Below, piece by piece: positions 1 to 62,047 of a stretch of 64,000 nt of DNA. Numbering within the stretch: the first letter of the stretch is position 1; every line of letters begins with the position of its first letter. The notes under the pieces were generated by a model, which was not told the origin of the DNA, searched no databases, and saw nothing but the letters and a program-made list of their open reading frames with translations. This stretch comes from Cenococcum geophilum (Eukaryota), in the NCBI GenBank assembly GCA_050273025.1, contig CP158635.1, positions 12,524,001-12,588,000 of the forward strand, read 5' to 3'. A program made the translations under genes and the position numbers.

Positions 1-2735
1 CTCTTCTTATTCTAGTTTAATAAGCCACTTAGCTCTTAGTGTGCCTATTCTAGGTCTATTGGTGATCCTTCGTACTAGCGCTCTGTCCTTCGTACGTCCT
101 AATGTGCTAGATCTCTTATCTAGTTTCTGTTCTTGCCATAAGGTAATTTTTGCTCTAAATTCTTCCATAGTTTCTTTTACGTCGCGTCTTATAAGTAGAT
201 CCTTAAAGTCTTCGTGCTTCTTAATCTTAGTATTAACTTTTTAATCTTTAGGCTAAATACTGTGTTCCCCTAGTAAGTCTTTTGGGTTTATATATCTGTC
301 TCCTAGCCTAATCGCTGTTTGCGCTATAGATTCTCTAATTTATAAGGAAGCTCCTTGCTTCTTACTTATAGGTGTTTTAATTTATACTCTAAATTCCTAA
401 CCCCTTAGATTCTTTAATCCTAAGCTTGCTTCTAACTTAAGCTTAGCTCTAGCCTTAGTCTAACTAGGCCTAACTAGTGTCCTCATCTCATCTTAAGAGT
501 CCTAGATCTCACTTATCTCTTCTTAAAAGTCTTATACCGTTAGGAATTCTTATCCTAAGCTTATTCATATGTCTTTAAACTAAGCTGCTACTCTACTCTA
601 TTAGTTTCTGTCCGTTATAGGTTTTTAAGCTTACCTTATCTTATCTTAAGAATCTTAAGCCTTTGGCCTTTTACCTTTATTAAGTAGTAAGCTAGCACTA
701 GCAGTTATCTGCTTGCTTAATTATCTCTAGATATTACTCCTTCCGTCTTATAAAGCAATGGATACCGTATCTAACGGTGTTATAATACCCGTTACTAAAC
801 CTTACTCTATAGCAGTCTCAGTCTCTACTTCTATTACGTTATTAAGGTTTAGATACCCCTAGTTAGTTCCTTTACTGTCCTCGTTACTATTAATTAATAA
901 GTACTCTAACTCCATTATTATTGTTGCTGATTATTGTCCGTATGTTACTATAATATCTTAATCCAGCTTATAGAGTCGATCTTATTCTTTATCTAACTCT
1001 TTAGTTCCTTTAAGTCCCTTTAACTCTGGCTCTTATAGCCAATAGCTTGCACCGTACTTAGTGTCTTTATAAATTTAGTATACGTTGTTATAACAAAACG
1101 CAAAGCTTCTAATTAAATATTCTTTTATTCCTTATAGTACACTATTATCCCTCTATACGTGTGTGTTATATGCTATTAATCTTATTCCCTTTATTGCATA
1201 GTAACTCTAACTATCTTTATAATCCCTCGCGAAGTAACCCTATTTTCCGTAATTTATATAAGCTCCGTCTCTAAACCATTAACTTTATTATGGAGTCCGC
1301 CTAAACGTCTTCTACTATTAAGATCCCTAGTTTAGCCTCTGCTCCTTAGTCCTACGATCACTAGATCCTTAACCTCTAAGTTTTTATAGTTTCTTACTCC
1401 CTCTCTTATAGGCTTCTTTGGTACCGCTTAGGTCTATTAGCTCTACGCCATACTATAGTTTCTAACTTAGCTTTAGTCGTTGCGTACTTTGCGTCTTATA
1501 TAACTATAGAACTCTATCCTAGCCTTTCTTAGCCTATTCCCTTTAGAAGATCCTATTATTGATCTTAATCGCTTAATCTATTAATTCCCTTAGGGTGTCC
1601 GCATCTTCCATCAAAATAATTACGTCCTAAACTTTAGCCTTAAGTCCTTGTTTATACTATACTATAAGCGCCTTATTGTTCCATTTAACCTATATTGCAA
1701 GTATTTAAAACTATATCGTGTATTTAATTATTAAAGTTCGCTGTATTAGGTCCTAAAGCTTTTTCTTTGCTATAGTTATTGCTTCCGGGTCTCTAAATAT
1801 CTATATTAATTGTTCCGCAAATCCTACCTAGCTAGAAAACACAAATTGTACCTCTTAATTTGTAGTAGTTATTCTATTAGTCTATATCTCTATTAAGTAG
1901 AGTTTAAACTATTTAAGTGCCCAACCCGTTAGGAATAGTCCTGCGTAGGCTATTTAGTCCATTATTATGGCTAACTTAGCCCCTTCTTACATGACTTTAA
2001 AATGCATTTGCGTTAGAAATCCTTTAAGCTTTAATCTTTCTCCTAAGAATTGTTTAATCGATAATAACTTAACCTTTACTACCCTAATTCCATTAAGTCT
2101 GTTCTTAAGTACCGTATTATTTTCTATTAATTAATTCACTATTTCTTATAATTGTCCTACCGTTATAGGTTGTTGCGAGTTAGTGTCCGCCATACTAGTG
2201 TCACCCCCTAACCTTAAAGTAGTTGCCGCCGTTAATGGCGTTATAGTGGCTGCTTTTAGTAGCATATTGTTCGACTCTGTGTTTAATACTATAACTAGGT
2301 AGTAATTGTATAACGGAACCTTATAGTAGGAACTACGATGGGTTCTATTAATAGGCTAGGTATATAGGAAATGTAAAAATAGTAGTCGGCAACGTAATAA
2401 TAACTAGTAGAGTGGTTGCCTAACAGATTAACTCTAATTGTATTCTAAGAATTACTATAAGGAAGGAACTATCTAGGTAGGGACTAAGGGTCCTTAAATA
2501 CACAACCGTACTCCTAAGAAATCCTTCTTATATATAATGTACGTCTTATCTGTTTTAAACGTGACGTTCCTTATATTTAACGCAGATAACACGTTCAACT
2601 ATTATGTGACTCGCTTACCATTCTTCGTCATATGGTTCCACGGGTTCCATCCCGGTCCGTGCCTGTATTAACTAACTAGCTTCTTCCAACTCTTCTCCAA
2701 GTAGTCGTAACATCGTACTTAAAGCGTCTGTAACA
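1..2735 (-). mobile_element. Gypsy LTR retrotransposon family A, copy 1 (5' LTR, gag and post-gag region; runs off the window start), RIP-degraded
   Basis: LTR 2309-2735 (tataacggaacc...tgtaaca) matches the LTRs at 46758 and 61783. The minus strand at ~1215-1266 reads, allowing for RIP changes, as a GACxNCGKxGHFARDC zinc knuckle. The sequence is colinear with 56100-57090 and 60640-61780. Confidence 0.9.
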
Positions 2736-27349: not shown

Positions 27350-30300
27350 GTGGTAACATGCGGAACGTTGGTCCCCCAACGCAAATTTTGACCCGAGTTT
27401 ATAACCCAAAGCTTTAACTTAGAGCTTTATTATATAGACTTTAATTAATATATATAGAGATGAGGTTTTCCAGGGGGAGACCCCCTGGGACCCCCCTATA
27501 TAGAGCTTTTGCTTAATTTAGAAGTAGTAGTAAGATTAAGGCGCCTTGGTTACCGCTAGGTAAGGATCTATTACAGTAACTAAGGTACCCTACTTAAGCT
27601 AGGTTTAAAGATTATATTGGTTACGAATATAGCATATATTTGGACTATAGAGCTTTAATACAGAGCCCTCTATATAGGATATAATATAGTAAATTGTAAT
27701 TCTAATTTAAAGCTTTATATACTAAATATTTTTAATGCCTAATAACTATTAACTACGTTATTGCCTACCCAGTTCGGACGTATAATAACGCAATAGCTCG
27801 GCGATAACGTAATAGCTTAGCGCTGAGTAATAGAAAGGGGGAGGAGGGGGAGGAGATTAGGGGTGGCTTAGCTACTGCAAGAAGGTTGTAATATTAGTAT
27901 AGTATTAAACTTTAAAAATTATATCCCGGGAGCTTAATTAATAACCCCTATATAAAACGTTAACAATATTTAATTATAGAGCTTTAAACCGGTAGATCTT
28001 TTAGGAATACCTATTATAAGTAGCTCCAAGTATAAAATTTAAAATATTTAGTAGTGGTATAAGTATAGGACGGGGGTACGTATTTACGTTCCCAAATATC
28101 GTTATATAATATAATTTTTGGGTAATAAAAACCGCCATTAATGTTGCTTAACTAATACCTACTAGAGGTTCCTCCGTCCTTTTTATCTTCTTTCTTACCT
28201 ATCTCCTTATCTAATACTATCTATATCACTATATTAACTAATAAATCCCTTAGTAGAGACTAGGGAGGAGTATTAGAGCGCCTCTAGCTCTTATAAGGAA
28301 GAAAAAAGAAGAAGAGAGGAAGGTATAAAAGAGGGAGTATTTATAAATAGGAGGAGGCCTGCAAACGGGAGATTAGGCAGCTATAATATAGATATTAATA
28401 TTGCTTAACTAACACCTACTAGACGCCCCTCCGTCCTTTCTATCTCCTCTTTTACCTATCTCCTTATTAGATGCTGTCTATATCACCACGTTAACCAATA
28501 GATCCCTTAGTGGGGACTAGAGAGGGATATTAGAGCACCTCTTATAAGGAAGAAGAAAGAAGAAGAGAGGAAGATATAGAGGAGGGAGTATTTATAGACG
28601 GGAGGAGGCCTGCGAACTAGAGATTAGGCAGCTATAATATAGATATTAACGTTGCTCAGCTAACACCTACTAGACGCCCCTCTGTCCTTTCTATCTCCTC
28701 TCTTACCCGTCTCCTTGTTAGATACTGTTTATATCACCACGTTAACTAATAGATCCCTTAGTGGGGACTAAAGAGGAGTATTAGAGCACCTCTAGCTCTT
28801 ATAAGGAAGAAGAAAAAAAGAGAGAAAGGTATAGAGGAGGAAGTATTTATAAATGGGAGGAGGCCTATAAACGGGAGATTAGGCAGCTATAATATAGACG
28901 TTAATATTACTTAGCTAATACCTACCGGACGCCCCTCCGTCCTTCCTATCTCCTCTCTTACCTATCTCCTCGTTAGATGCTGTCTATATCACTACGTTAA
29001 CCAATAAATCTCTTAGTGGGGACTAGGGAGGAGTATTGGAGCACCTCTAGCTCTTATAAGGAAGAAGAAAAGAGGAAAGAAAGGTATAGAGAAGGGAGTA
29101 TTTATAGACGGGAGGAGGCCCTATAAGTACGTAATTTGGTAAGTACTAATAAGCATAAGATTCTCGTATAAGATGGGCTTAATTACTTACTAAAATACGG
29201 GGTGTCTCTATCACTATAGTGGCTACTATAGTAGTAGAGACGCCTTAAATATTTAATATAACTAACTACTAAGGCTATTAATAAGTAAAAGGTAGGCTAC
29301 TAATATAGTGTAAATGATGTAGTTATTAATATCGTTTATAGCCTGTTTTTGCTTCTAGTATACGCGTAGATTATCCTTATATTTAGCGTAGAGCTAGTTA
29401 TAGGTAGTAAGCTAATTTGGGTCTAGCTTTACTATTAATATAGCTATAGGTAGTATGTCCCTTAGTATAGGCCGACTTAGTAGTTCTAGCTTTAGAAGAT
29501 CGTCTTTCTTCTTAGATGGGTTAATATACTGCCATACCTCGTTAGTTTTGGCTATGTCTTAGATAATAAGAACCATTAAATCTAATTAGATGGCTTATTA
29601 AGGATAAGGTTAATTTTTAATTTAGTAAAGGTTATTATTTTTAGAATTTAATAGGTTAGGAAGGGTCTAGGTTAGGGTCTAGCTAGCGTCTTAGCAGAAC
29701 CTTATTTAGACGTTCCGAACTTTTAATTTAATTCATTAGTTCGTTTATTAGTTAGATTTTATTATAGGGAGCGCAATTAATAACCCCTACTAATAGCTCT
29801 AACTACGTCTAATTTTTAATTTATAAATCGGTAGACTTATAGGTAATAGTTATTTTAAGCAGCTCCAGGTGCGGTATATATAAAATCTTAACTATAGTAT
29901 AGAGAAGTCGTGGCTGCTAATATACGGTCCCAAGTAGCATATATTCTTAGAGGTCACGTAACTCCTTATATAAGCGACATTTCCGCCCTTTAAAAAAAAA
30001 TTGAAAAATTCTAAAAATTAATTAACGCTATAGATAGCAGCAATATTGATCCAGTAATACTGCTAATTCTCTTTATATACCATTATATGTATATCTAATA
30101 GCTCTAGAAGCGGTAAGAAGGTAGGATAAATAGGGGGGTTAAAATTTAGAAAATTAGATTTTATAGTTAAGCTATTTAAAAATTAGGAAACTAAGATAAA
30201 TACTATATTCTCCGCTTACCTTTAAGCTAGTACATAATTTCCTATTTAGGAAAATTCGTTTATAAGTAGTTGCTACTACCTCTATATAAAATCTTCTTAT

Positions 30301-39665: not shown

Positions 39666-42600
39666 TGATAATAAAGTTTATTCCGCCCGGAGGCACTAAG
39701 CCTAAAGGGCACTAGTACTATATTACATAATTACGCTTCCTTTAGTCTCGCCATATTCTCGTACAAGCCCGTACATATGCCTTGTTTAGTATTCCCTAGT
39801 ATTACTTATGCCTTATTTTACGAGATCTTATAGGTGGTTAATAGCAGGTAGTCTTAGGGGGGGGGTGTTCCTCCAAGTATTTAGTGTCCTATCTTCGGCG
39901 ATTAAAGCGAGATCTGCTAGTAGCACAAGGGTATATAGTGTAGGTTGGTTAAAGCGTAAAGGGGGGGAGGGGGGGGAGTTTCTAACTGTAGTAAACGGGT
40001 TATTAATCCAATTCTGCCTTAAGTCGTCTAGTAGCTATTATATATTTTACTATCGCTCGGACCGCGTCTATGTTTAGTGTCTACTGTCTAGGGTTAGTTG
40101 GTGCCTTCCCCCTAAGATAAAAGGATAAGCTGCCTCTTCTTATATCTGTTTACTATAGCATTTACTCTTAGTATACTATCTATTTTATACACCTAAAGAG
40201 GAAGTATTTAACTGTTTCTCTTACCTAACCGTAATTACATTAATCTGATTCTGCCGCCCTAATGTAATATAGATACCTATTAAGTTGTATTATTTCTATC
40301 CATAACTAGGCCAATATATTTACCTCTCCTTACTTAAGGGAGTTATATAGCCTGCGGGTATATTTACCTAGTAGTGCTATATCTATTTTTCTTAAGTACC
40401 TTTCTACTTCTTCTAGTAGTGTTTTCCTACCCTACTATTTTATTCTTGTAGTGTTTATTATTATAGCCTTAGCCTAGTATTGTTGTCCTTATAGTAGGCG
40501 TCCTTATATAGTGGCTTATTATGCTGCTATTTTTGCCTTCTTGCCTAGTTTAAACTCCCCTTATAGGACCTATATAATAAGAAAGCGGTTACTTCTTTAC
40601 CTTAGTGTGTAGGCTATATTATAGATCTATATAATACTTATTTGGCTAGACTATTACTTAGGTTAGCTAAGCGCTAATAGTGCTGCCTAATTACTGGTAA
40701 ATATAGTAATCTATCTCCCCTGTAGATCCGGTAGTAAGTATCTTATTACCATTAATATTGCTACTAGTTTAGCCGTATATAGGTTTTGTTCTACTCTTAG
40801 TCCTAATATAATTAAGTATATAACTGCTTCCCTATTACTAAGGGTGTTATAGATAACACCTTCTATCCCTACTATGCCTCTCCTCCTAGACGAGCTTGTT
40901 GCGATCTGTATTCCTTAGGTAGAGTTAGCTGTTTTAGTTACCTTATCTTTATCTAGGTTAATGCTTATAAGCAGTCGGTCCTCCTATAGTAGTACTATAT
41001 AGGGTTGTGTAACCTCTATCTTATCTGTTGGTGTATATTAGTATATATAGGCTATCTTCTACAGTAGGGACGTAAACCTCTAAAGTACCTTAGTGCGGAG
41101 CCTTAATAGTGGGTTTGTCTTATATAGTGTGCGGAGGTTAACCTATAGCTTTATAGCCCTCTCTAAGTGCCGCTTGCGTACTAACTATATACTTACTTCA
41201 GCCTCCCTAATAACTATAGCTACTATATAGAAAGTTCCTATAATTGCCTACGCTCTAATTCTTTATACCCTATTTATTATGGCTGACGCGGAACCCCTAT
41301 AGGCGTATATTTAGATATTTAAGGCGTAGTCTACTACCGGCGCTACCGTTGCCCTAAATAGTTATCTTATAGTTAAAGGGGATACCATCCGGAGTCTCTT
41401 TAATGCCATTACTGCGATAAGGCCCTTGGTGGCTGCTTTTGTGATATATTACTTATACTAAAGCTCCACATCTATAACTACCCCTAAAATCTTAGCTATA
41501 TGCCCTAGTGTAACTGTTTTTCCCTTAATTATAAACAGAGTAGTATTGGTCCGCTCCATGTTTCTTATAAAGTGCACTAATATAGTCTTTTTACCTTTAA
41601 ACGTTGCGCCGCTTTATTTCTCCTAGTTTATTGCTCTATTAATAATAGCCTAAATACCTTTACGGTTTGCTGCTGCTAATAGTTCTATAACCTATATATT
41701 ATAGTCGTCCACAAACGCTATTAAGCCTCTATTTATATTAAGCTGGTGCTAAACTAGGTTAGCGTTAAAAAAGAGGAATAGTATTAGTGAGAGCGGCGAT
41801 CCTTATAGTAGTTCTGCTTATAGTAACTATTACTAGTTAAAGGTATAGCCGCTAACTAAGATAGTCGTTATCTGATTAAAGCAGAATGTATTAATCCACT
41901 ATACTAGTACTAGTGGTATACCTCTTACTATAAGCCTCTATAATAGCCTCTCTTTATATACTCCGTTATATACACCCTTTATATTAAAGCTAATAAGGCT
42001 AAGTACCTTCTTAGACCTTTACGCGTTATAGATATGTTCTTATAGTAATAGCAGCGCCTATTTAGTGGAACGCTTCTTTTTTACCTTAAAGTAATTTATA
42101 GGTAGTAGACCGAAGGTCTCTACTATATGCGATATTCTCTTAGTAACTATAGACTCTAGTACCTTACCTAGCGTAGACAGTAGGGAGATAGGCCTCTATG
42201 CCCTTGCCTTTATATAGTCTCCTTTATTCGGCTTCTTAAGCGGTATAATCTTAGCATTTCTTTATTAGTTGGGAAGGTTGCCTTTATCTAGTGAGGTCTA
42301 AAAGAGGAACAGGACCCTATCTTTTATTACTGGCTATATCTGCCTCTATACTATCGCTAGTAGTCCGTTATCCTCTGGCGCTTTCTATAGCTTTACTATA
42401 AATATTTTCCGTTCTACCTCTTCCATTGTAAGACACGGCATTAGTATTAGCGTTTATTAAGGCCGCGGGCCCTTATTCTCTATTCCTGTTAGCAGCAGGG
42501 GAAAGAATATAGTTAATAGCTTTGCTGCTTACTTATCTTTACCTTCTATAGTAAATCCATCCGCCCTTACTAATAGTGGTATCTTATTAAACGCTAAGTT

Positions 42601-56900: not shown

Positions 56901-57091
56901 TAATATCCAATCTGCGAACTAGTTTATTGGTTCCTTTATATTCCGTTAAATATAGCTCTTATAGCTAATAGCTTGCGCCGTATTTAGTGTCCTTATAAAT
57001 TTGGTATACGTTATTATAATAAAACGCAAAACTTTTAATTAAACATTCTTTTGTTCCTCGTAGTATATTATTATCCCTCTATATATATATA

Positions 57092-60000
57092 TTGGCCCGC
57101 AAAGCCCTACTGCACGCGTCCACGTCGCCGCGGGTGGAAACATCATCGGGAAATCATTCCTTATGATGGCTAAGTGCAGAGGCGATAGAGGAGAGCCGTC
57201 GCAGCGCGCGCAGCGCGCTGGTGTTGCGACTCTATGGTGTTAAGCCTGCGACGCGTATATCGCCCTTAATAACACCAGGAGTCCTACTGCCCCCACTTAG
57301 GGCTCCTACTATACCATCCAGGGGGGCCATTAAGGGAAACTGGGATACGAAAACCGCCCGACGTATAACTACCTGGCTCGCAGCTAGGCCCGAAACTAGC
57401 CTTATTTAGCCAGTTAATATAAACGCGCCCTAGGCGTACGACAGGACACCCTTAGGCTTGCACTAGCTCTAAGACTAAGAGGATATAGCGAGGGTGTAGG
57501 GAACCTCTTTTTATAAGAACTTGTTAAGGTTAATGCGTTATAGATACTTTATACGAAACTTATTAAGGCCCTAAGGCTACCACGAAGAACTTATTAAGGC
57601 CCTACCTAAAGAACTTATTAAGGCCCCTTTATAAGGGCCTATCTGGTATTTAGTACACCTAGGTAACTTAGAAGAGGGTCTTAATAGGCGTAGTACGCGC
57701 GACCTGGACGACGGTAATACGCCGGCAATATAACGGCAACGTAACGGCAACTGAATAGCGACTAGACGGCTTAATAAGGTGGAAATACGGGTAAAGCTCT
57801 AGGCAGTGGAAATATAGGCTAGCTTTAACGGCCCTATAGCGTTCGACTTACAGTTAACTTACAGTTAACTTATGGTTAACTTATAGGCGACTTATAGGAG
57901 GGTCTTAATAGGCGTAGTGTATGTAACCTAATATATATATGCATAAGGCGACTTACAGGAGGGTCTTAATAGGCGTAGTGTATATAACCTGATGTATATA
58001 TATGGGGGAGGCTATAGGGGAAACATAGGCTAGTTGGACGAGGACTTAATAGTTAGAGATATAGGCCAGCTTATAAAAAGGGGGGACACAAGCTTAGTTA
58101 GTAGGAGGGGGGAGAGTAGGTCGCCTGGTGCGGGACCTGGTTTCTACGGCCCCCCTCTTATAAGACACGGTTGGCCTATTATAAGGAGACTTTTATAGGC
58201 AACGTAAAACGGGAACTAGTAGTATATAGGGTGTTGCGCCCCTATATTACTACTGGCTTCCTATAGGGTATAGTATGTAGTAGCTACTACTGGCTCTAAG
58301 GACCTTATTCCTTAACTAGGCTCTAACCTTTAGTGCACCTAGTAGGTAGATAGGATTATACCCTAGCTAAAGAGACTACTACGTAGCTTAAGAGAACGGA
58401 TATGTGTGTTGGTATATTAATAGACGGAACCGTTCACCTTTAGGGCGGCTCGCCAGTAAGATATGCTTAAGAAGTAAATAGGAGTTACTTAGGCGGGAGA
58501 GGCAGTGGCTCGGCCTTGTCCGTAGAAGGTATACCCAACTATATTATAGGATGCAGCTATAACACCTCTATAGGATTATGTTAGTAGGCGTAAAGATGGG
58601 AGTTACAACCCCTAGAAACGGCAGCTTATGCCCACGCCAGTGGAAATAATAAAGAAGGCGTAAAACTAGAGGCTATAGAAGGCTCCCAAGCTATGCAAAA
58701 GTATACTAACTTTAGGAGGAAACTCTTATACAGACTACTAGGGGGTAGACTAGTACTTGGGTAATACCGTTATAAGATATCTAAAAGAACTGGTGAAATT
58801 CCCCGCAATTGGTGGTGGCAGCCAACTGCTTATAGTTTGGGACTAAAGCACTAGAAAACTGGGGTAGAGGCCTAGATAAGTAGGTATGTTAAACTCTACT
58901 ATATTACTAGCTAATATATAACTACCTGCCTTTTCTTTATAAGCAACTTGCTTAACTCCTTTAAGGAAGGGGCGACCTAGGGGATAGGCTTTGTTAACGA
59001 CACAAACTTAATTATATATGGGCTAACAGCCGCAGAAAATTGCAGAACACTAGAGAAAGCCTATAACACTTATATAGAATAGGCAAAACATTATAGAGTC
59101 TAATTCTCACTAGAGAAATACCAGCTAATCTATTTTATAAGAAAACGCAACCAATCTACAGATCTCTAGCATATAATTTATATTTAAGACTTTAGGGGTT
59201 AACCAGTTTAGAGCCTAAGGGTATTAGGAGTATAGGTAGATAGTAAGCTCTAGTGGAGCGTATATGCGGCGTAAGCGGCCCATAAAGGCTAAGTATAGTT
59301 TATCGCTTTATCTAGGATTGTTAATTCTATATAGGGTCTATGCTTTTAGAGGTCACGCCTACTATATATAGCAGTTGTCTGGCTAACTATGATATATAAA
59401 TCTAGTATTTAGGCTATTAGAGAAACTAAGAAGGGCCCCCCTAAATTACTCCTTAAACTACTTTAAAAGGTCTAGACAGCCTGCCTTTAAAGTATTATAG
59501 GTGGGTATAAGCGAACGGCCACAGTACTGCTTAAGAAGGAATTCAATATTCCCCCCCTATAGTTATATATTAAAGCCGCTATAATATAAAGGACGCAAAA
59601 TAAACGTAACTCTAATGTTATAAAGTATATTAAGACACGCCTAAGTAAACTATAGAGGGACCCTAGGGTGCCCTATAGGAGAATAAACTAATAACCCTAA
59701 AGTAGGGAAGAGATATTAGAGAAACAGGTAAAGAAAGCAGAAGAAGGATAGTGCCGCTTTAGGGCCTAGGCCTATATAGAGGAGAAAGGGAGACGTATAA
59801 GAGGTTAGTAAAGATAATAGTAAGATAGAGAAAGGAGCTAAAGTAGAATATATAAGAACGCCGGGAAACCATCTACCGTAATATAATACTGGTTAGACTA
59901 ACGCTAGAGAGGCGAATAGGAGTTAAAGGTATAGAGGCTGACTTAGGCAAGACAAACCTAAGCTATAGTATGGTTAACGCTATAGGGGGTAAATACCTAA

Positions 60001-60631
60001 GGGCTCTAAGAAGGCCTAATAAAGGTAAAAAATATAATAGTAATACTCTTAAGAACAGGAATAATAGGACTAAAAGATTGGCTTTACTAGGTGGGAGTCC
60101 TAGTAGGTAGCTTAAGATGTAAATATAGCTAGCTAAAACAGATACTAAAACACGTAATACTGCTATGCCCCCTATACACCAATTAAGAAATAATACTCTT
60201 AGCAGCTGGCATAGAGAACTATAATACACTACTCTTAATATAAAAAGGCCTTAAGGCGGTCACCTAGTGGCTTATTAGTTAAAATGTGCTAAATTAGTTC
60301 CGGGTTATAAGGGAAATGGTAATAAAAGGTAAGGGGGTAAGTAGTAGGTGCCCCCTAGTAACTCTATAGTAGTAGAGTAATAGTTTATAATACTAGCGCA
60401 TCCATAGGCTTATTACGGCAGCAGTGGTTCCTAAGGAGGTTAAATAGTAAGGTAGTAGAGCACCATAGGCAACTTATAGGCGTTAAGTAGGCGAGTCCCA
60501 AAAGGCGGGGAGATAGATTATGGGGTTTTCTCATTTTTCTTAAATAGAGTTTTCTCCCCATATGTAAATAAGGAGTAGTCCGCGTGGGCCCAATAGGGAT
60601 CCAAATTAGACGTTAAGTAATAAATTATTAT
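57092..60631 (+). mobile_element. Internally deleted LINE (Tad-like RT remnant, C-terminal CCHC, (TTA)n tail) inserted downstream of the gag zinc knuckle of A2
   Basis: Flanked by (TA)n on both sides at a site that is uninterrupted in A1 (~1155). RT GFVNDTNL at ~58987-59010; C..G...Q..KHVILLCP at ~60117-60172; tail taaattattatta. Confidence 0.85.
57095..57179 (+). ncRNA. HDV-like self-cleaving ribozyme at the LINE 5' end
   Basis: P1 GCCCGCA/CGCGGGT; P2 CTGCAC/GTGCAG; P3 GCG/CGC; L3 TCCACGT; J1/4 GG; P4 CATCAT.GGGAA/TTCCT.ATGATG; J4/2 GCTAA with the catalytic C at 57170. Confidence 0.85.
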
Positions 60632-62047
60632 TATATATATATGTTGTCTACTAGTCTTATTTCTTTTACTATATAGTAACTCTAACTACTTTTATAGTCT
60701 TTAACGTAATAACCTTATTTTCCATAATTTATATAAGCTTCCTCTTTAAACTATTTTTCTTATTATAAAATCCGCCTAAACGTCCTCTACTGCTAAGATT
60801 CCTAGTTTAGCCTCTGCTCCTTAAACCTTTAATTACTTAATTCTTATCCTCTAAGTTTCTATAGTTTCTTATTCTATCTTATAGATTCTTTAGTACTACT
60901 TAGGTCTATTAGCTTTACGCTATACTATAGTTTTTAACTTAGCTTTAGTTATTGCGTGCTTTACGCCTTATACAACTATAGAACTCTATCTTAACCTCTC
61001 TTAGCCTGTTCCCTTTAGTAAATCTAATTATTAATCTTAATTACTTAATCTATTAGCTCCTATAGGGTATCCGCATCTTCTATTAGAATAATCGCGTCCT
61101 AGACTTTAGCCTTAAGTCCTTACTTATACTGTGCTATAAGCGCCTTATTATTCCACTTAACTTATATAGCTAACGTCTAGAACTGCGTTATATACTTAAT
61201 TGCTAAGGTTTATTACGTAATATCTTAGAGTTTTTTTTCCGCTGTAGTTACTGCCTCTAGATCTCCAAATATTTATATAAGTCGCTCCGTAAACCCTTCC
61301 TAGCTTAAGAATATAAACCATACTTCTTAATTAGTAGTTGTTATACTGTTTGCCTATATTTTTATAAGGTAAGGCTTAAACTACTTAAGTACCCTTTTTA
61401 ATAGGAATAGTCCCGCATATACTATTCGATCCATAAGTATTAGTAGCTTTACCCCTTCTTATATAACTTTAAAGTGCATTTATATAAGAAATCCTTTAAG
61501 CTTTAATCTCTCTCCTAAGTATCTCTTAATTAATAGTAGCTTAATCTTTACTGCTCCTATCCTATTAACCCTTTCTTCCAGCGCCGTATTGTTTGTTGTT
61601 AACTAGTTAACTATCTCTTATAGTTGTCCGACCGTTATAGGTTGCTATAAGTTAGTGTCTATTATACTAGTGTCCCCTCCTAACCTTAAAGTAGTTGCCG
61701 CCGTTAATAGCGTTATAGTAGCTGCTTTTAGTAGCATGTTATTTAACTTTCTATATTTAATACCGTAACTAGGTAGTGATTATATAACGGAACCTTGTAG
61801 CAAGTACTACAATAGGCTCGTTAATAGGCTAGGTGTATAGGTAATGTAAATTAAAGTTAATAACGTAATAATAACTAGTAGAGTAGTTGCCTAACAGATT
61901 AACTCTAATTATATTCTAAGAATTACTATAAGGAAGGAACTATCTAGGTAGGGACTAAGGGTCCTTAAATACACAACCGTACTCCTATAAAATCCTTCTT
62001 ATACGTAATGTACGTGTTGTACGTATTATACGTACGTTCCCTTTATA

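What the first reader, a model, noticed from the sequence alone, without database searches (positions are those of the whole stretch)
57095..57179. Complete HDV-like ribozyme at the 5' end of a fungal LINE
Seen: every element of the nested double pseudoknot appears in order. P1 57095-57101 pairs with 57129-57135 (G-U at the cleavage site, one A-C mismatch); P2 57110-57115 with 57174-57179; P3 57116-57118 with 57126-57128. L3 is UCCACGU, GG at 57136-57137 can form P1.1, a long P4 hairpin spans 57141-57168, and J4/2 is GCUAA. The predicted cut 5' of G57095 lies within about 3 nt of the element boundary. The segment keeps its CpA/TpG dinucleotides while the rest of the element is RIP-eroded. Established: HDV-like ribozymes process the 5' ends of several non-LTR retrotransposons, e.g. 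R2 and L1Tc. Inference: this fungal LINE family cuts itself out of read-through transcripts, and the ribozyme may still be active.
Basis: partly seen in the sequence, partly recalled or inferred. Interest (0 to 1): 0.88.

Follow-up and report, generated by a model that had tools for sequence, protein, structure and literature searches.

The report
HDV-like ribozyme heading a fungal retroposon
A self-cutting RNA motif of the hepatitis-delta type sits exactly at the first base of a retrotransposed insertion in a fungal genome, so it very likely trimmed the RNA that was copied back into DNA; the kind of system is already known, but the element is a hybrid and not a plain LINE.

Summary
A strict descriptor finds this one site in the window and none in 40 Mb of random sequence at matching quality. 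Two Rfam HDV models align full-length but below gathering score.

A 16-bp target-site duplication (57079-57094 / 60631-60646) bounds a 3,536-bp insertion. It starts at G57095, the predicted cleavage product.

Five further copies, seen as read-through ORFs with unrelated upstream flanks, begin homology at the same base. They carry G where the window has A57101, which restores a 7-bp P1.

Only 58926-60630 is LINE, namely the 3' half of the RT, a CCHC region and the tail. The 1.75 kb after the ribozyme is an unrelated, multi-copy, transcribed, apparently non-coding repeat. Full-length relatives of the LINE have a different 5' end and no such ribozyme.

Best reading: a ribozyme-headed composite, non-autonomous retroposon mobilised by the LINE. 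No nucleotide-level covariation or cleavage assay was possible. It is a new member of a known kind.

The parts
57079..57094 (.). 5' copy of the 16-bp target-site duplication (CTATATATATATATTG)
   Evidence: In purine/pyrimidine coding, 57000-57094 matches the uninterrupted paralogous repeat at 1074-1168 at 100% over 95 nt. Sequence read.
57095..57179 (+). HDV-like ribozyme. P1 57095-57101/57129-57135; J1/2 57102-57109; P2 57110-57115/57174-57179; P3 57116-57118/57126-57128; L3 57119-57125; P1.1 57120-57121/57136-57137; P4 57141-57168; J4/2 57169-57173 with C57170. Predicted cut is 5' of G57095.
   Evidence: Five relatives conserve the core at amino-acid level.
57180..58925 (+). RIP-mutated body of a multi-copy, transcribed, apparently non-coding repeat family. 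It is unrelated to the LINE and contains short tandem repeats (for example 57885-58001, a 61-bp unit x1.9).
   Evidence: No LINE homology. Dozens of DNA contigs per position in runs X1 and X5, and RNA contigs and reads in X15 and X21. 35 short ORF fragments from relatives tile it, but in changing frames. Tandem repeats.
58926..60630 (+). 3' half of an APE-type LINE: RT from just before the FVDD motif (here FVND), thumb, CCHC-like region, 3' UTR and a short ATT/AAT tail. RIP-mutated with many stop codons.
   Evidence: blastn 83-87% to L001-L003, L006, L008, L010, L011. About 98% in purine/pyrimidine coding. Family HMM i-E 7e-101 at 58930-60321. P0001 residues 707-1026 at 69% identity. 3' ends aligned.
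60631..60646 (.). 3' copy of the target-site duplication (TTATATATATATGTTG). It differs from the 5' copy by 2 transitions.
   Evidence: 60631-60700 matches paralog 1153-1225, so paralog 1153-1168 is present on both sides of the insertion. Sequence read. Empty sites of the host repeat appear as joints 57090/57093 to 60648/60663 and in L072.

Best explanation
57095-57179 encodes a genuine HDV-type self-cleaving ribozyme that forms the 5' end of a retroposed RNA.

Proposed mechanism, with the status of each step:
1. A source copy is transcribed from whatever lies upstream (inferred).
2. The nested double pseudoknot folds, and C57170 in J4/2 catalyses cleavage 5' of G57095, leaving an RNA that starts with G (inferred from the fold; not assayed).
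3. The RNA carries the 3' 1.7 kb of an APE-type LINE including its tail. The LINE's reverse transcriptase uses it in trans by target-primed reverse transcription. Shown indirectly by the canonical LINE 3' end and the 16-bp target-site duplication.
4. The cDNA runs to the very 5' end of the RNA, so the insertion begins at the cleavage-site G. Shown: the insertion starts at 57095.

The ribozyme and the 1.75 kb behind it belong to a separate, multi-copy, non-coding repeat family. Other copies of that family start at the same base, and some are 5'-truncated, so the family is itself spread by LINE machinery. The window copy is a composite of that family and a 5'-truncated LINE, joined at 58925/58926. 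It could not have been autonomous even before RIP.

The join could have arisen in three ways: read-through of a LINE fragment nested in a source copy (5' transduction), template switching during reverse transcription, or DNA recombination. The evidence does not discriminate between these.
For: Fold and specificity:
- All helices are present.
- There is one site in the window and 0 in 412,635 nt of related loci.
- 0 of 40 Mb of random sequence reaches the observed quality.
- Two HDV covariance models align end to end in the same register.

Position:
- The insertion is bounded by a 16-bp duplication of paralog positions 1153-1168. Its first base is G57095.

Independent copies:
- ORFs P0145, P0152/P0157, P0156, P0160 and P0162 read '...S|PRSPTARVHVAAGGNI(I/V)GK...MMAKCRGD', which is the ribozyme in the frame starting at 57097.
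- They have five unrelated upstream sequences.
- P0158 and P0159 show the uninterrupted flank of P0152/P0157.
- DNA contig record 17 of run X5 aligns from exactly 57095, with 88 unaligned bases before it.

Conservation:
- 5 of 5 relatives have Arg where the window has Gln (CAA). Base 57101 is therefore G, P1 is 7 of 7 paired, and the window's mismatch is a G-to-A change.
- Every other amino-acid difference inside the ribozyme falls in P4. I-to-V at 57145 gives a G.U pair. L-to-P at 57161 turns a G.U pair into G-C. S-to-Q lies in the loop. F-to-L and M-to-I are the others.
- Ala (GCN) keeps G57169 and C57170 in all 8 sequences that cover it.

Mobilisation by the LINE:
- The 3' end matches the LINE 3' end and tail in 6 loci.
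- 5'-truncated copies of the repeat exist at L010:1-146 and in P0132.

Expression:
- RNA contig depth in X15 rises from 2.9 (56937-57073) to 839 (57074-57210).
- X21 reads over 57074-58991 are strongly one-stranded.
Against: - Rfam scores are below gathering thresholds, and the window-wide gathering search found nothing.
- No nucleotide sequences of other copies could be obtained, so covariation is untested. Conservation is inferred from translated ORFs of fairly close copies.
- The pseudoknot-free minimum free energy of the 85 nt is not unusual (z = -1.28). It contains a hairpin that competes with P1 and P3.
- The base before the element is A in 5 of 5 relatives. This could instead mean that the RNAs start one base upstream, at a transcription start. 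In the two testable cases (the window's duplication, and P0152/P0157 against P0158/P0159) that base is also present in the target.
- F-to-L in P0156 and P0162 breaks one inner P4 pair.
- There is no cleavage assay and no mapping of RNA 5' ends. The jump in RNA depth may simply mark the end of homology.
Confidence: 0.78

Rival explanations
1. One reading: the ribozyme is the native 5' end of an autonomous LINE family that cuts itself out of read-through transcripts. The repeat behind it would be that LINE's long 5' UTR, and the window copy would be an internally deleted derivative.
For: - The exact 5' terminus is shared by several copies, and 5'-truncated copies exist, as for LINEs.
- Depth falls towards the 5' end in DNA runs.
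- One relative, P0134, continues past the 58925 junction with other sequence, so full-length family members are longer than 1.83 kb.
Against: - No endonuclease or RT signal in 57095-58925 in six frames or by tblastn with 121 family proteins.
- ORF fragments of relatives change frame along the body.
- Full-length copies of the LINE that supplies the 3' half have another 5' end and no HDV-like motif: 0 of 79 loci, and no hit in L002:1700-3700.
Confidence: 0.15
2. The common 5' end is a transcription start from an internal promoter, one base upstream. The HDV-like fold would play no part in defining the end, or would only remove a capped nucleotide.
For: The base at -1 is A in 5 of 5 relatives despite unrelated flanks.
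Against: - In the window -1 is G and is part of the duplicated target; both duplication copies end in TTG.
- For P0152/P0157 the A is also present in the uninterrupted flank, as Ile (ATH) in P0158 and P0159.
- A complete and conserved HDV fold placed by chance at a transcription start is very unlikely.
Confidence: 0.05
3. Chance resemblance: the helices are fortuitous and the RNA does not cleave.
For: - Rfam scores are sub-threshold.
- The minimum-free-energy z-score is unremarkable.
- There is no experimental data.
Against: - 0 of 40 Mb of random sequence reaches this quality.
- The site coincides to the base with an insertion boundary.
- The core is conserved in 5 further copies, which also repair the only P1 mismatch.
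Confidence: 0.02

Closest known systems
R2 SIDEs and R2/R1 hybrid SIDEs of Drosophila (Eickbush and Eickbush 2012, PMC3414825; abstract and outline read)
   Same: A non-autonomous element with an HDV-like ribozyme at its 5' end joined to the 3' end of a LINE whose machinery moves it. In the hybrid SIDEs the ribozyme and the 3' end come from different elements. Target-site duplications are typical of the donor of the 3' end. The same paper reports template jumps that produce 5' chimeras.
   Different: Here the host is a RIP-affected fungus. Insertion is not rDNA-specific: this copy lies in another repeat at a TA/TG-rich site. The retained LINE part is 1.7 kb. The ribozyme-bearing part is a 1.75-kb non-coding repeat, not a piece of a known autonomous element. 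Whether this exact junction recurs is unknown.
L1Tc Pr77 HDV-like ribozyme of Trypanosoma cruzi (PMC3185411; abstract and one Discussion passage read). That the non-autonomous NARTc shares it is recalled.
   Same: The ribozyme occupies the first roughly 80 nt of a non-LTR element and frees it from read-through transcripts.
   Different: In L1Tc the autonomous element carries the ribozyme. Here the sampled autonomous LINE relatives do not. The paper mentions a compatible fold in Penicillium chrysogenum only as unpublished laboratory data.
Fungal HDV ribozyme variants (BMC Genomics 2017, PMC5640933; section 7 and passages read)
   Same: HDV-class self-cleaving ribozymes in filamentous ascomycetes: 230 representatives in 26 species, plus 11 of canonical type known earlier. 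Two were shown to cleave.
   Different: Those variants have a C-G pair at the cleavage site, an E-loop in P4, and an extra base between P2 and P3. The window's ribozyme has G.U, an ordinary P4 and no extra base, so it is the rarer canonical type. The paper reports 'widely variable gene associations', and the word 'retrotransposon' does not occur in its main text. Its alignments were not among the supplementary files held as text.
Rfam RF00094 (HDV ribozyme) and RF02682 (HDV-F-prausnitzii)
   Same: Full-length alignment in the same register, with the same P1, P3, P4 and J4/2 GGCUAAG block.
   Different: Bit scores of 22.9 and 28.6 are below the gathering scores of 50 and 44. These models cannot score P2 or P1.1.

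Membership tests
HDV-like self-cleaving ribozymes | Nested double pseudoknot: P1, P2, P3 and P4 in order, with P1.1 between L3 and the bases after P1 | tested here: met
   Direct reading and the descriptor scan. The scan gives a unique site in the window and 0 of 40 Mb of random sequence at this quality.
HDV-like self-cleaving ribozymes | G at +1 forming a wobble (R-Y) pair at the base of P1 | tested here: met
   G57095.U57135.
HDV-like self-cleaving ribozymes | Catalytic C in J4/2 | tested here: met
   C57170 lies in GCUAA. The Ala codon GCN is retained in 8 of 8 relatives that cover it. A catalytic role is inferred.
HDV-like self-cleaving ribozymes | Score at or above Rfam gathering threshold | tested here: not met
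   0 hits at gathering score. Best scores are 28.6 of 44 bits and 22.9 of 50 bits. Per PMC5640933 section 7, most members of this class were found by structure descriptors that largely ignore sequence.
HDV-like self-cleaving ribozymes | Covariation supporting the helices | tested here: inconclusive
   Only translated ORFs of relatives were available. They show one-sided changes that keep pairs (57145, 57161) and G at 57101 restoring P1. No double-sided change could be verified.
HDV-like self-cleaving ribozymes | Mg2+-dependent site-specific self-cleavage giving 5'-OH and 2',3'-cyclic phosphate ends | not testable with these tools
   Indirect support only: at least 6 insertions begin at the predicted +1 base.
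Non-LTR (LINE-mobilised) retroposon insertion | Target-site duplication and an empty site elsewhere | tested here: met
   16-bp duplication. Uninterrupted paralog at 1074-1528 and in L072. Empty-site joints in run X1, three of them also in X5.
Non-LTR (LINE-mobilised) retroposon insertion | 3' end identical to that of a LINE, with its tail | tested here: met
   Alignment with 6 LINE copies up to the ...AATAATAA-type tail.
Autonomous LINE | Encodes an endonuclease and a complete RT | tested here: not met
   Only family HMM positions 653-1099 are present. No Pfam hit in the three + frames read with X at stops.
SIDE-like non-autonomous family (ribozyme + LINE 3' end propagating as such) | Several copies sharing the same internal junction | tested here: inconclusive
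   No other copy with the 58925/58926 junction was seen. P0134 continues differently past it. Only part of the read-laying output is listed.

The most novel reading that the evidence does not exclude
A family of long, non-coding, ribozyme-capped retroposons lives in Dothideomycete-like fungi and parasitises an APE-type LINE. Its genomic 5' junctions would be a fossil record of HDV-type self-cleavage in vivo. By extension, many of the 'orphan' HDV ribozymes reported across fungal genomes with 'widely variable gene associations' could be heads of such retroposons rather than gene regulators.
Probability: 0.35. Interest if true: 0.6.

Novelty: new member of a known kind. Interest (0 to 1): 0.5.

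Why it matters
HDV-like ribozymes that trim the 5' ends of non-LTR retrotransposons are established in insects and trypanosomes, and HDV-class ribozymes are known to be common in fungi. The fungal ones have no assigned biology in the papers I could read.

This locus links the two. At least six independent insertions begin exactly at the predicted cleavage product, which is in-genome evidence that the ribozyme worked.

It also shows a ribozyme head combined with the 3' half of a LINE from another lineage. That supports the view that a self-cleaving 5' module plus a LINE 3' end is enough to be mobilised.

The result is incremental for ribozyme biology. It is useful for annotating fungal repeats and for explaining orphan fungal HDV motifs.

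Tried and rejected
- Whole-genome search and file: no genome is held for this window. Records behind the metagenome loci are not held either.
- My by-eye matches of endonuclease and RT motifs in 57180-58925 were not borne out. tblastn gave only E >= 0.07, and the family HMM gave nothing in six frames.
- tblastx of the 5' part against 79 loci matched only L010:1-146.
- Purine/pyrimidine-coded blastn at a loose threshold gave only noise. At E <= 1e-12 it found no homolog of the 5' part apart from one 72-nt stretch in L030.
- A coding reading of the 5' body, with an ATG-ATG at 57163 in frame with the RT remnant, was rejected. The word-index search found nothing. The phmmer hits are short ORFs whose frame relative to the window changes within single proteins. 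Stop density does not discriminate between frames.
- Covariance model R1, built from the window ribozyme alone, found no second copy in the window plus 79 loci.
- Rfam E-value search of L002:1700-3700 gave no HDV hit.
- Pattern scans found 26 stretches in prokaryote genome contigs and 1 in viral contigs. All match only the typed core and are chance hits in GC-rich DNA.
- The search of earlier findings returned nothing.
- Papers not held: the 2011 RNA Biology review and the 2009 Science report. What they list for fungi is known to me only through PMC5640933.
- Literature searches found no paper describing an HDV-like ribozyme at the 5' end of a fungal retroelement.
- Read laying listed no 'other letters' rows inside 57095-57179 among the 40 rows shown of about 1,094. 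The reads therefore gave no covariation data.
Full report
**1. The motif**

- P1 is GCCCGCA/CGCGGGU, with G57095.U57135 at the cleavage site and an A57101-C57129 mismatch at the inner end.
- P2 is a perfect 6-bp helix, 57110-57115 with 57174-57179.
- P3 is GCG/CGC.
- L3 is UCCACGU. Its two C can pair with G57136 and G57137 to form P1.1.
- P4 is a 28-nt hairpin.
- J4/2 is GCUAA, with C57170 at the catalytic position.

A descriptor I wrote for this architecture finds exactly this site on both strands of the window. It finds nothing in 79 related loci totalling 412,635 nt.

In random sequence the loosest form of the descriptor occurs 5 times in 20 Mb (Markov model of the element) and 21 times in 20 Mb (iid, GC 0.57). 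With a 6-bp P2 and a P4 stem of at least 6 bp, as observed, it occurs 0 times in 40 Mb.

Rfam gives nothing at gathering score. In E-value mode two HDV models align over their full length in the same register. RF02682 scores 28.6 bits (E 0.0022) and RF00094 scores 22.9 bits (E 0.41).

Pseudoknot-free folding recovers P2 and P4 but prefers a small competing hairpin to P1 and P3 (z = -1.28). The two nested halves evaluate to -22.4 and -21.6 kcal/mol, against a minimum free energy of -26.6. The energy calculation therefore neither supports nor contradicts the fold.

**2. The insertion**

57000-57083 and 60648-61000 match one continuous copy of another repeat at 1074-1528.

RIP changes only C to T and G to A, so I recoded the DNA as purine/pyrimidine. 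In that coding 57000-57094 equals 1074-1168 at 100%, and 60631-60700 aligns to 1153-1225. Paralog positions 1153-1168 therefore occur on both sides of the insertion. This is a 16-bp target-site duplication: CTATATATATATATTG and TTATATATATATGTTG, which differ by 2 transitions.

The inserted unit is 57095-60630. Its first base is the G that the fold predicts as the 5' end of the cleaved RNA. There is a 1-nt ambiguity, because G57094 could be shared.

Empty sites of the host repeat are also seen in locus L072. They appear too as contig joints 57090/57093 to 60648/60663 in DNA run X1.

**3. What the unit is made of**

The RT remnant led to protein P0001 (1,026 aa; Exo_endo_phos + RVT_1), which is 70% identical over the query region. 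It also led to a large family of roughly 1,100-aa LINE proteins.

Seventy-nine metagenome loci encoding relatives were fetched. The window matches the closest of them (L001-L003, L006, L008, L010, L011) only from 58926 onward. Identity there is 83-87% at nucleotide level and about 98% in purine/pyrimidine coding, so nearly all differences are RIP-type transitions.

A profile of 28 family proteins hits only 58930-60321 (profile positions 653-1099, i-E 7e-101). It hits nothing upstream in any of six frames.

The 3' end of the unit aligns with the LINE's 3' end and short AAT/ATT tail in six copies.

Full-length copies of this LINE (L002 from about 1953, L001 from about 4285) begin with GGAGCTCTTGCTGCACC.... 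They give no HDV signal by Rfam, by my descriptor or by a model built from the window ribozyme.

The window unit therefore lacks the endonuclease and half of the RT. It was not autonomous even before RIP.

**4. The 1.75 kb behind the ribozyme**

This stretch has no similarity to the LINE at any level. It is nevertheless a repeat family in its own right.

Public runs were laid on the stretch.
- Dozens of DNA contigs per position appear in two organisms (X1, X5). Most differ from the window by T>C and A>G, so the window copy is the RIP-mutated one.
- In a metatranscriptome (X15), RNA contig depth rises from 2.9 just upstream to 839 in the bin containing 57095.
- In a stranded RNA run (X21), reads over 57074-58991 are mostly first-mate-on-minus. 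In most stranded libraries this corresponds to + strand RNA.
- One DNA contig (X5, record 17) aligns from exactly 57095, with 88 unaligned bases before it.

A phmmer search was run with the frame that starts at the ATG at 57163, reading stops as X. It found 35 short proteins tiling the whole body. Their frame relative to the window changes, even within single proteins. I read them as spurious ORFs called on GC-rich, un-RIPed copies of a non-coding sequence.

One of them, P0143, is named by its source as a protein of Lindgomyces ingoldianus, a member of the Pleosporales. The family therefore extends to a named Dothideomycete.

5'-truncated copies also exist. L010:1-146 begins at the 58522-equivalent. 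P0132 joins an alpha/beta-hydrolase ORF to the 57733-equivalent.

P0134 follows the body up to the junction and then continues with sequence unlike the LINE. The 58925/58926 junction is therefore not universal in the family.

**5. Evidence from the read-through ORFs**

Five ORFs read through the ribozyme in the frame starting at 57097: P0145, P0152/P0157, P0156, P0160 and P0162. They share '...S|PRSPTARVHVAAGGNI...' but have five unrelated sequences before it. P0158 and P0159 show the flank of P0152/P0157 without the insertion.

Together with the window, this makes at least six independent insertions whose homology starts at the predicted +1 base.

- All five have Arg where the window has Gln (CAA). 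Base 57101 is therefore G, and P1 is fully paired in the family. The window's A-C mismatch is a private G-to-A change.
- All other amino-acid differences inside the ribozyme lie in P4. At 57145 the A-to-G change keeps a G.U pair. At 57161 the T-to-C change turns a G.U pair into G-C. There are two changes in the loop. One change (F-to-L) breaks an inner pair. Two M-to-I changes have partners at silent third positions.
- The codons covering P1, P2, P3, L3, P1.1 and J4/2 are otherwise invariant. Ala (GCN) keeps C57170 in 8 of 8 sequences.

This fits a constrained catalytic core with a tolerant P4. But the copies are close relatives and only two of every three bases are visible, so it is not a covariation test.

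The more divergent P0143 appears to change two bases of the 5' strand of P1. Their partners fall on silent positions, so compensation is possible but unverifiable.

**6. RIP sparing**

The ribozyme has non-RIP dinucleotide indices (0.5 and 1.5). Every other part of the unit and its flanks is RIP-like (Fisher p = 1.3e-4).

The indices relax gradually towards the 5' end: 57180-57500 is intermediate. DNA depth is lowest at 57211-57347. I therefore attribute the sparing mainly to fewer homologous partners for the extreme 5' end, because many copies are 5'-truncated. I do not attribute it to selection on this copy. This is inference.

**7. Mechanism and rivals**

The simplest account has three steps.
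- A source copy is transcribed by read-through.
- The ribozyme cuts 5' of G57095.
- The LINE's RT recognises the LINE 3' end and copies the RNA to its 5' end, producing an insertion that starts at G and is flanked by a 16-bp duplication.

The composite structure could have arisen in three ways: read-through into a 5'-truncated LINE nested in a source copy, template switching, or DNA recombination. A 1-3-nt overlap and a 15-nt tandem duplication sit at the junction.

Rivals:
- The ribozyme-headed family is itself an autonomous LINE with a long 5' UTR. This is possible because full-length members were not seen.
- The shared end is a transcription start one base upstream. The A at -1 in 5 of 5 relatives suggests this, but the two cases where the target can be checked argue against it.
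- Chance.

**8. Relation to what is known**

HDV-like ribozymes at the 5' ends of R2, L1Tc, baggins and RTE elements are established (review PMC6765202, passages; PMC3185411).

The closest analog is the Drosophila SIDE class. This includes R2/R1 hybrids, in which a ribozyme from one element is joined to the 3' end of another. Template-jump chimeras are described in the same paper (PMC3414825, abstract).

HDV-class ribozymes are known in fungi: 230 variant representatives in 26 species and 11 canonical ones, with cleavage shown for two (PMC5640933, section 7). That paper gives them no retroelement context.

The window's ribozyme is of the canonical type, not the fungal variant type.

Four full-text searches found no description of a fungal retroelement headed by an HDV-like ribozyme. 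The 2009 and 2011 papers that list earlier fungal examples were not available.

**9. Verdict**

This is a real, very probably once-active HDV-like ribozyme heading a LINE-mobilised composite retroposon. It is a new member of a known kind, of moderate interest.

Noticed in passing
window 57094, and the residue before 'PRSP' in P0145, P0152/P0157, P0156, P0160, P0162: The base just before the element is A in 5 of 5 relatives (Ser = A+GC) and G in the window, despite unrelated flanks. In the two testable cases it is also a target base. This suggests a preference at the 5' junction, either in top-strand cleavage or through microhomology. It remains unexplained.
   Followed up: partly
window 58896-58924: A 15-nt tandem duplication (x1.9) lies directly before the junction between the repeat body and the LINE. 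The relative P0134 has a single copy and then continues with non-LINE sequence.
   Followed up: partly
window 41314-42579 (- strand): A second, different LINE RT remnant (29-33% identity to P0001 and P0002 by tblastn). It is unrelated at DNA level to the element studied.
   Followed up: no
window 1074-1528; 57000-57094 + 60631-61000; L072:7491-7639: The insertion sits inside another RIP-mutated repeat. That repeat has an uninterrupted copy elsewhere in the window and in a metagenome contig, and very high contig depth in the DNA runs. The target is a TA/TG-rich stretch. P0145's flank (LCIYQ) also back-translates to a TG/TA-rich site.
   Followed up: partly
window 59814-60635 against 57074-58991 (run X21): RNA reads over the repeat body are mostly first-mate-on-minus. 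Over the LINE 3' part they are mostly first-mate-on-plus. In that organism the two parts are therefore transcribed mainly from opposite strands, not as one chimeric RNA.
   Followed up: no
P0132 (262 aa) against window 57733-57989: An alpha/beta-hydrolase ORF (Pfam Abhydrolase_1) runs directly into a 5'-truncated copy of the repeat body. This is either an insertion into or next to a gene, or a chimeric contig.
   Followed up: no
window 28418-28945: In purine/pyrimidine-coded blastn the same 22-nt word recurs at 28418, 28669 and 28924. The spacing of about 250 nt hints at a tandem array there.
   Followed up: no
window 57163-57168: An ATG-ATG in the 3' strand of P4 is in frame with the LINE RT remnant 1.8 kb downstream. 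Some predicted ORFs of relatives (P0128, P0161) start at it. No conserved ORF follows, so I treat it as coincidence.
   Followed up: yes
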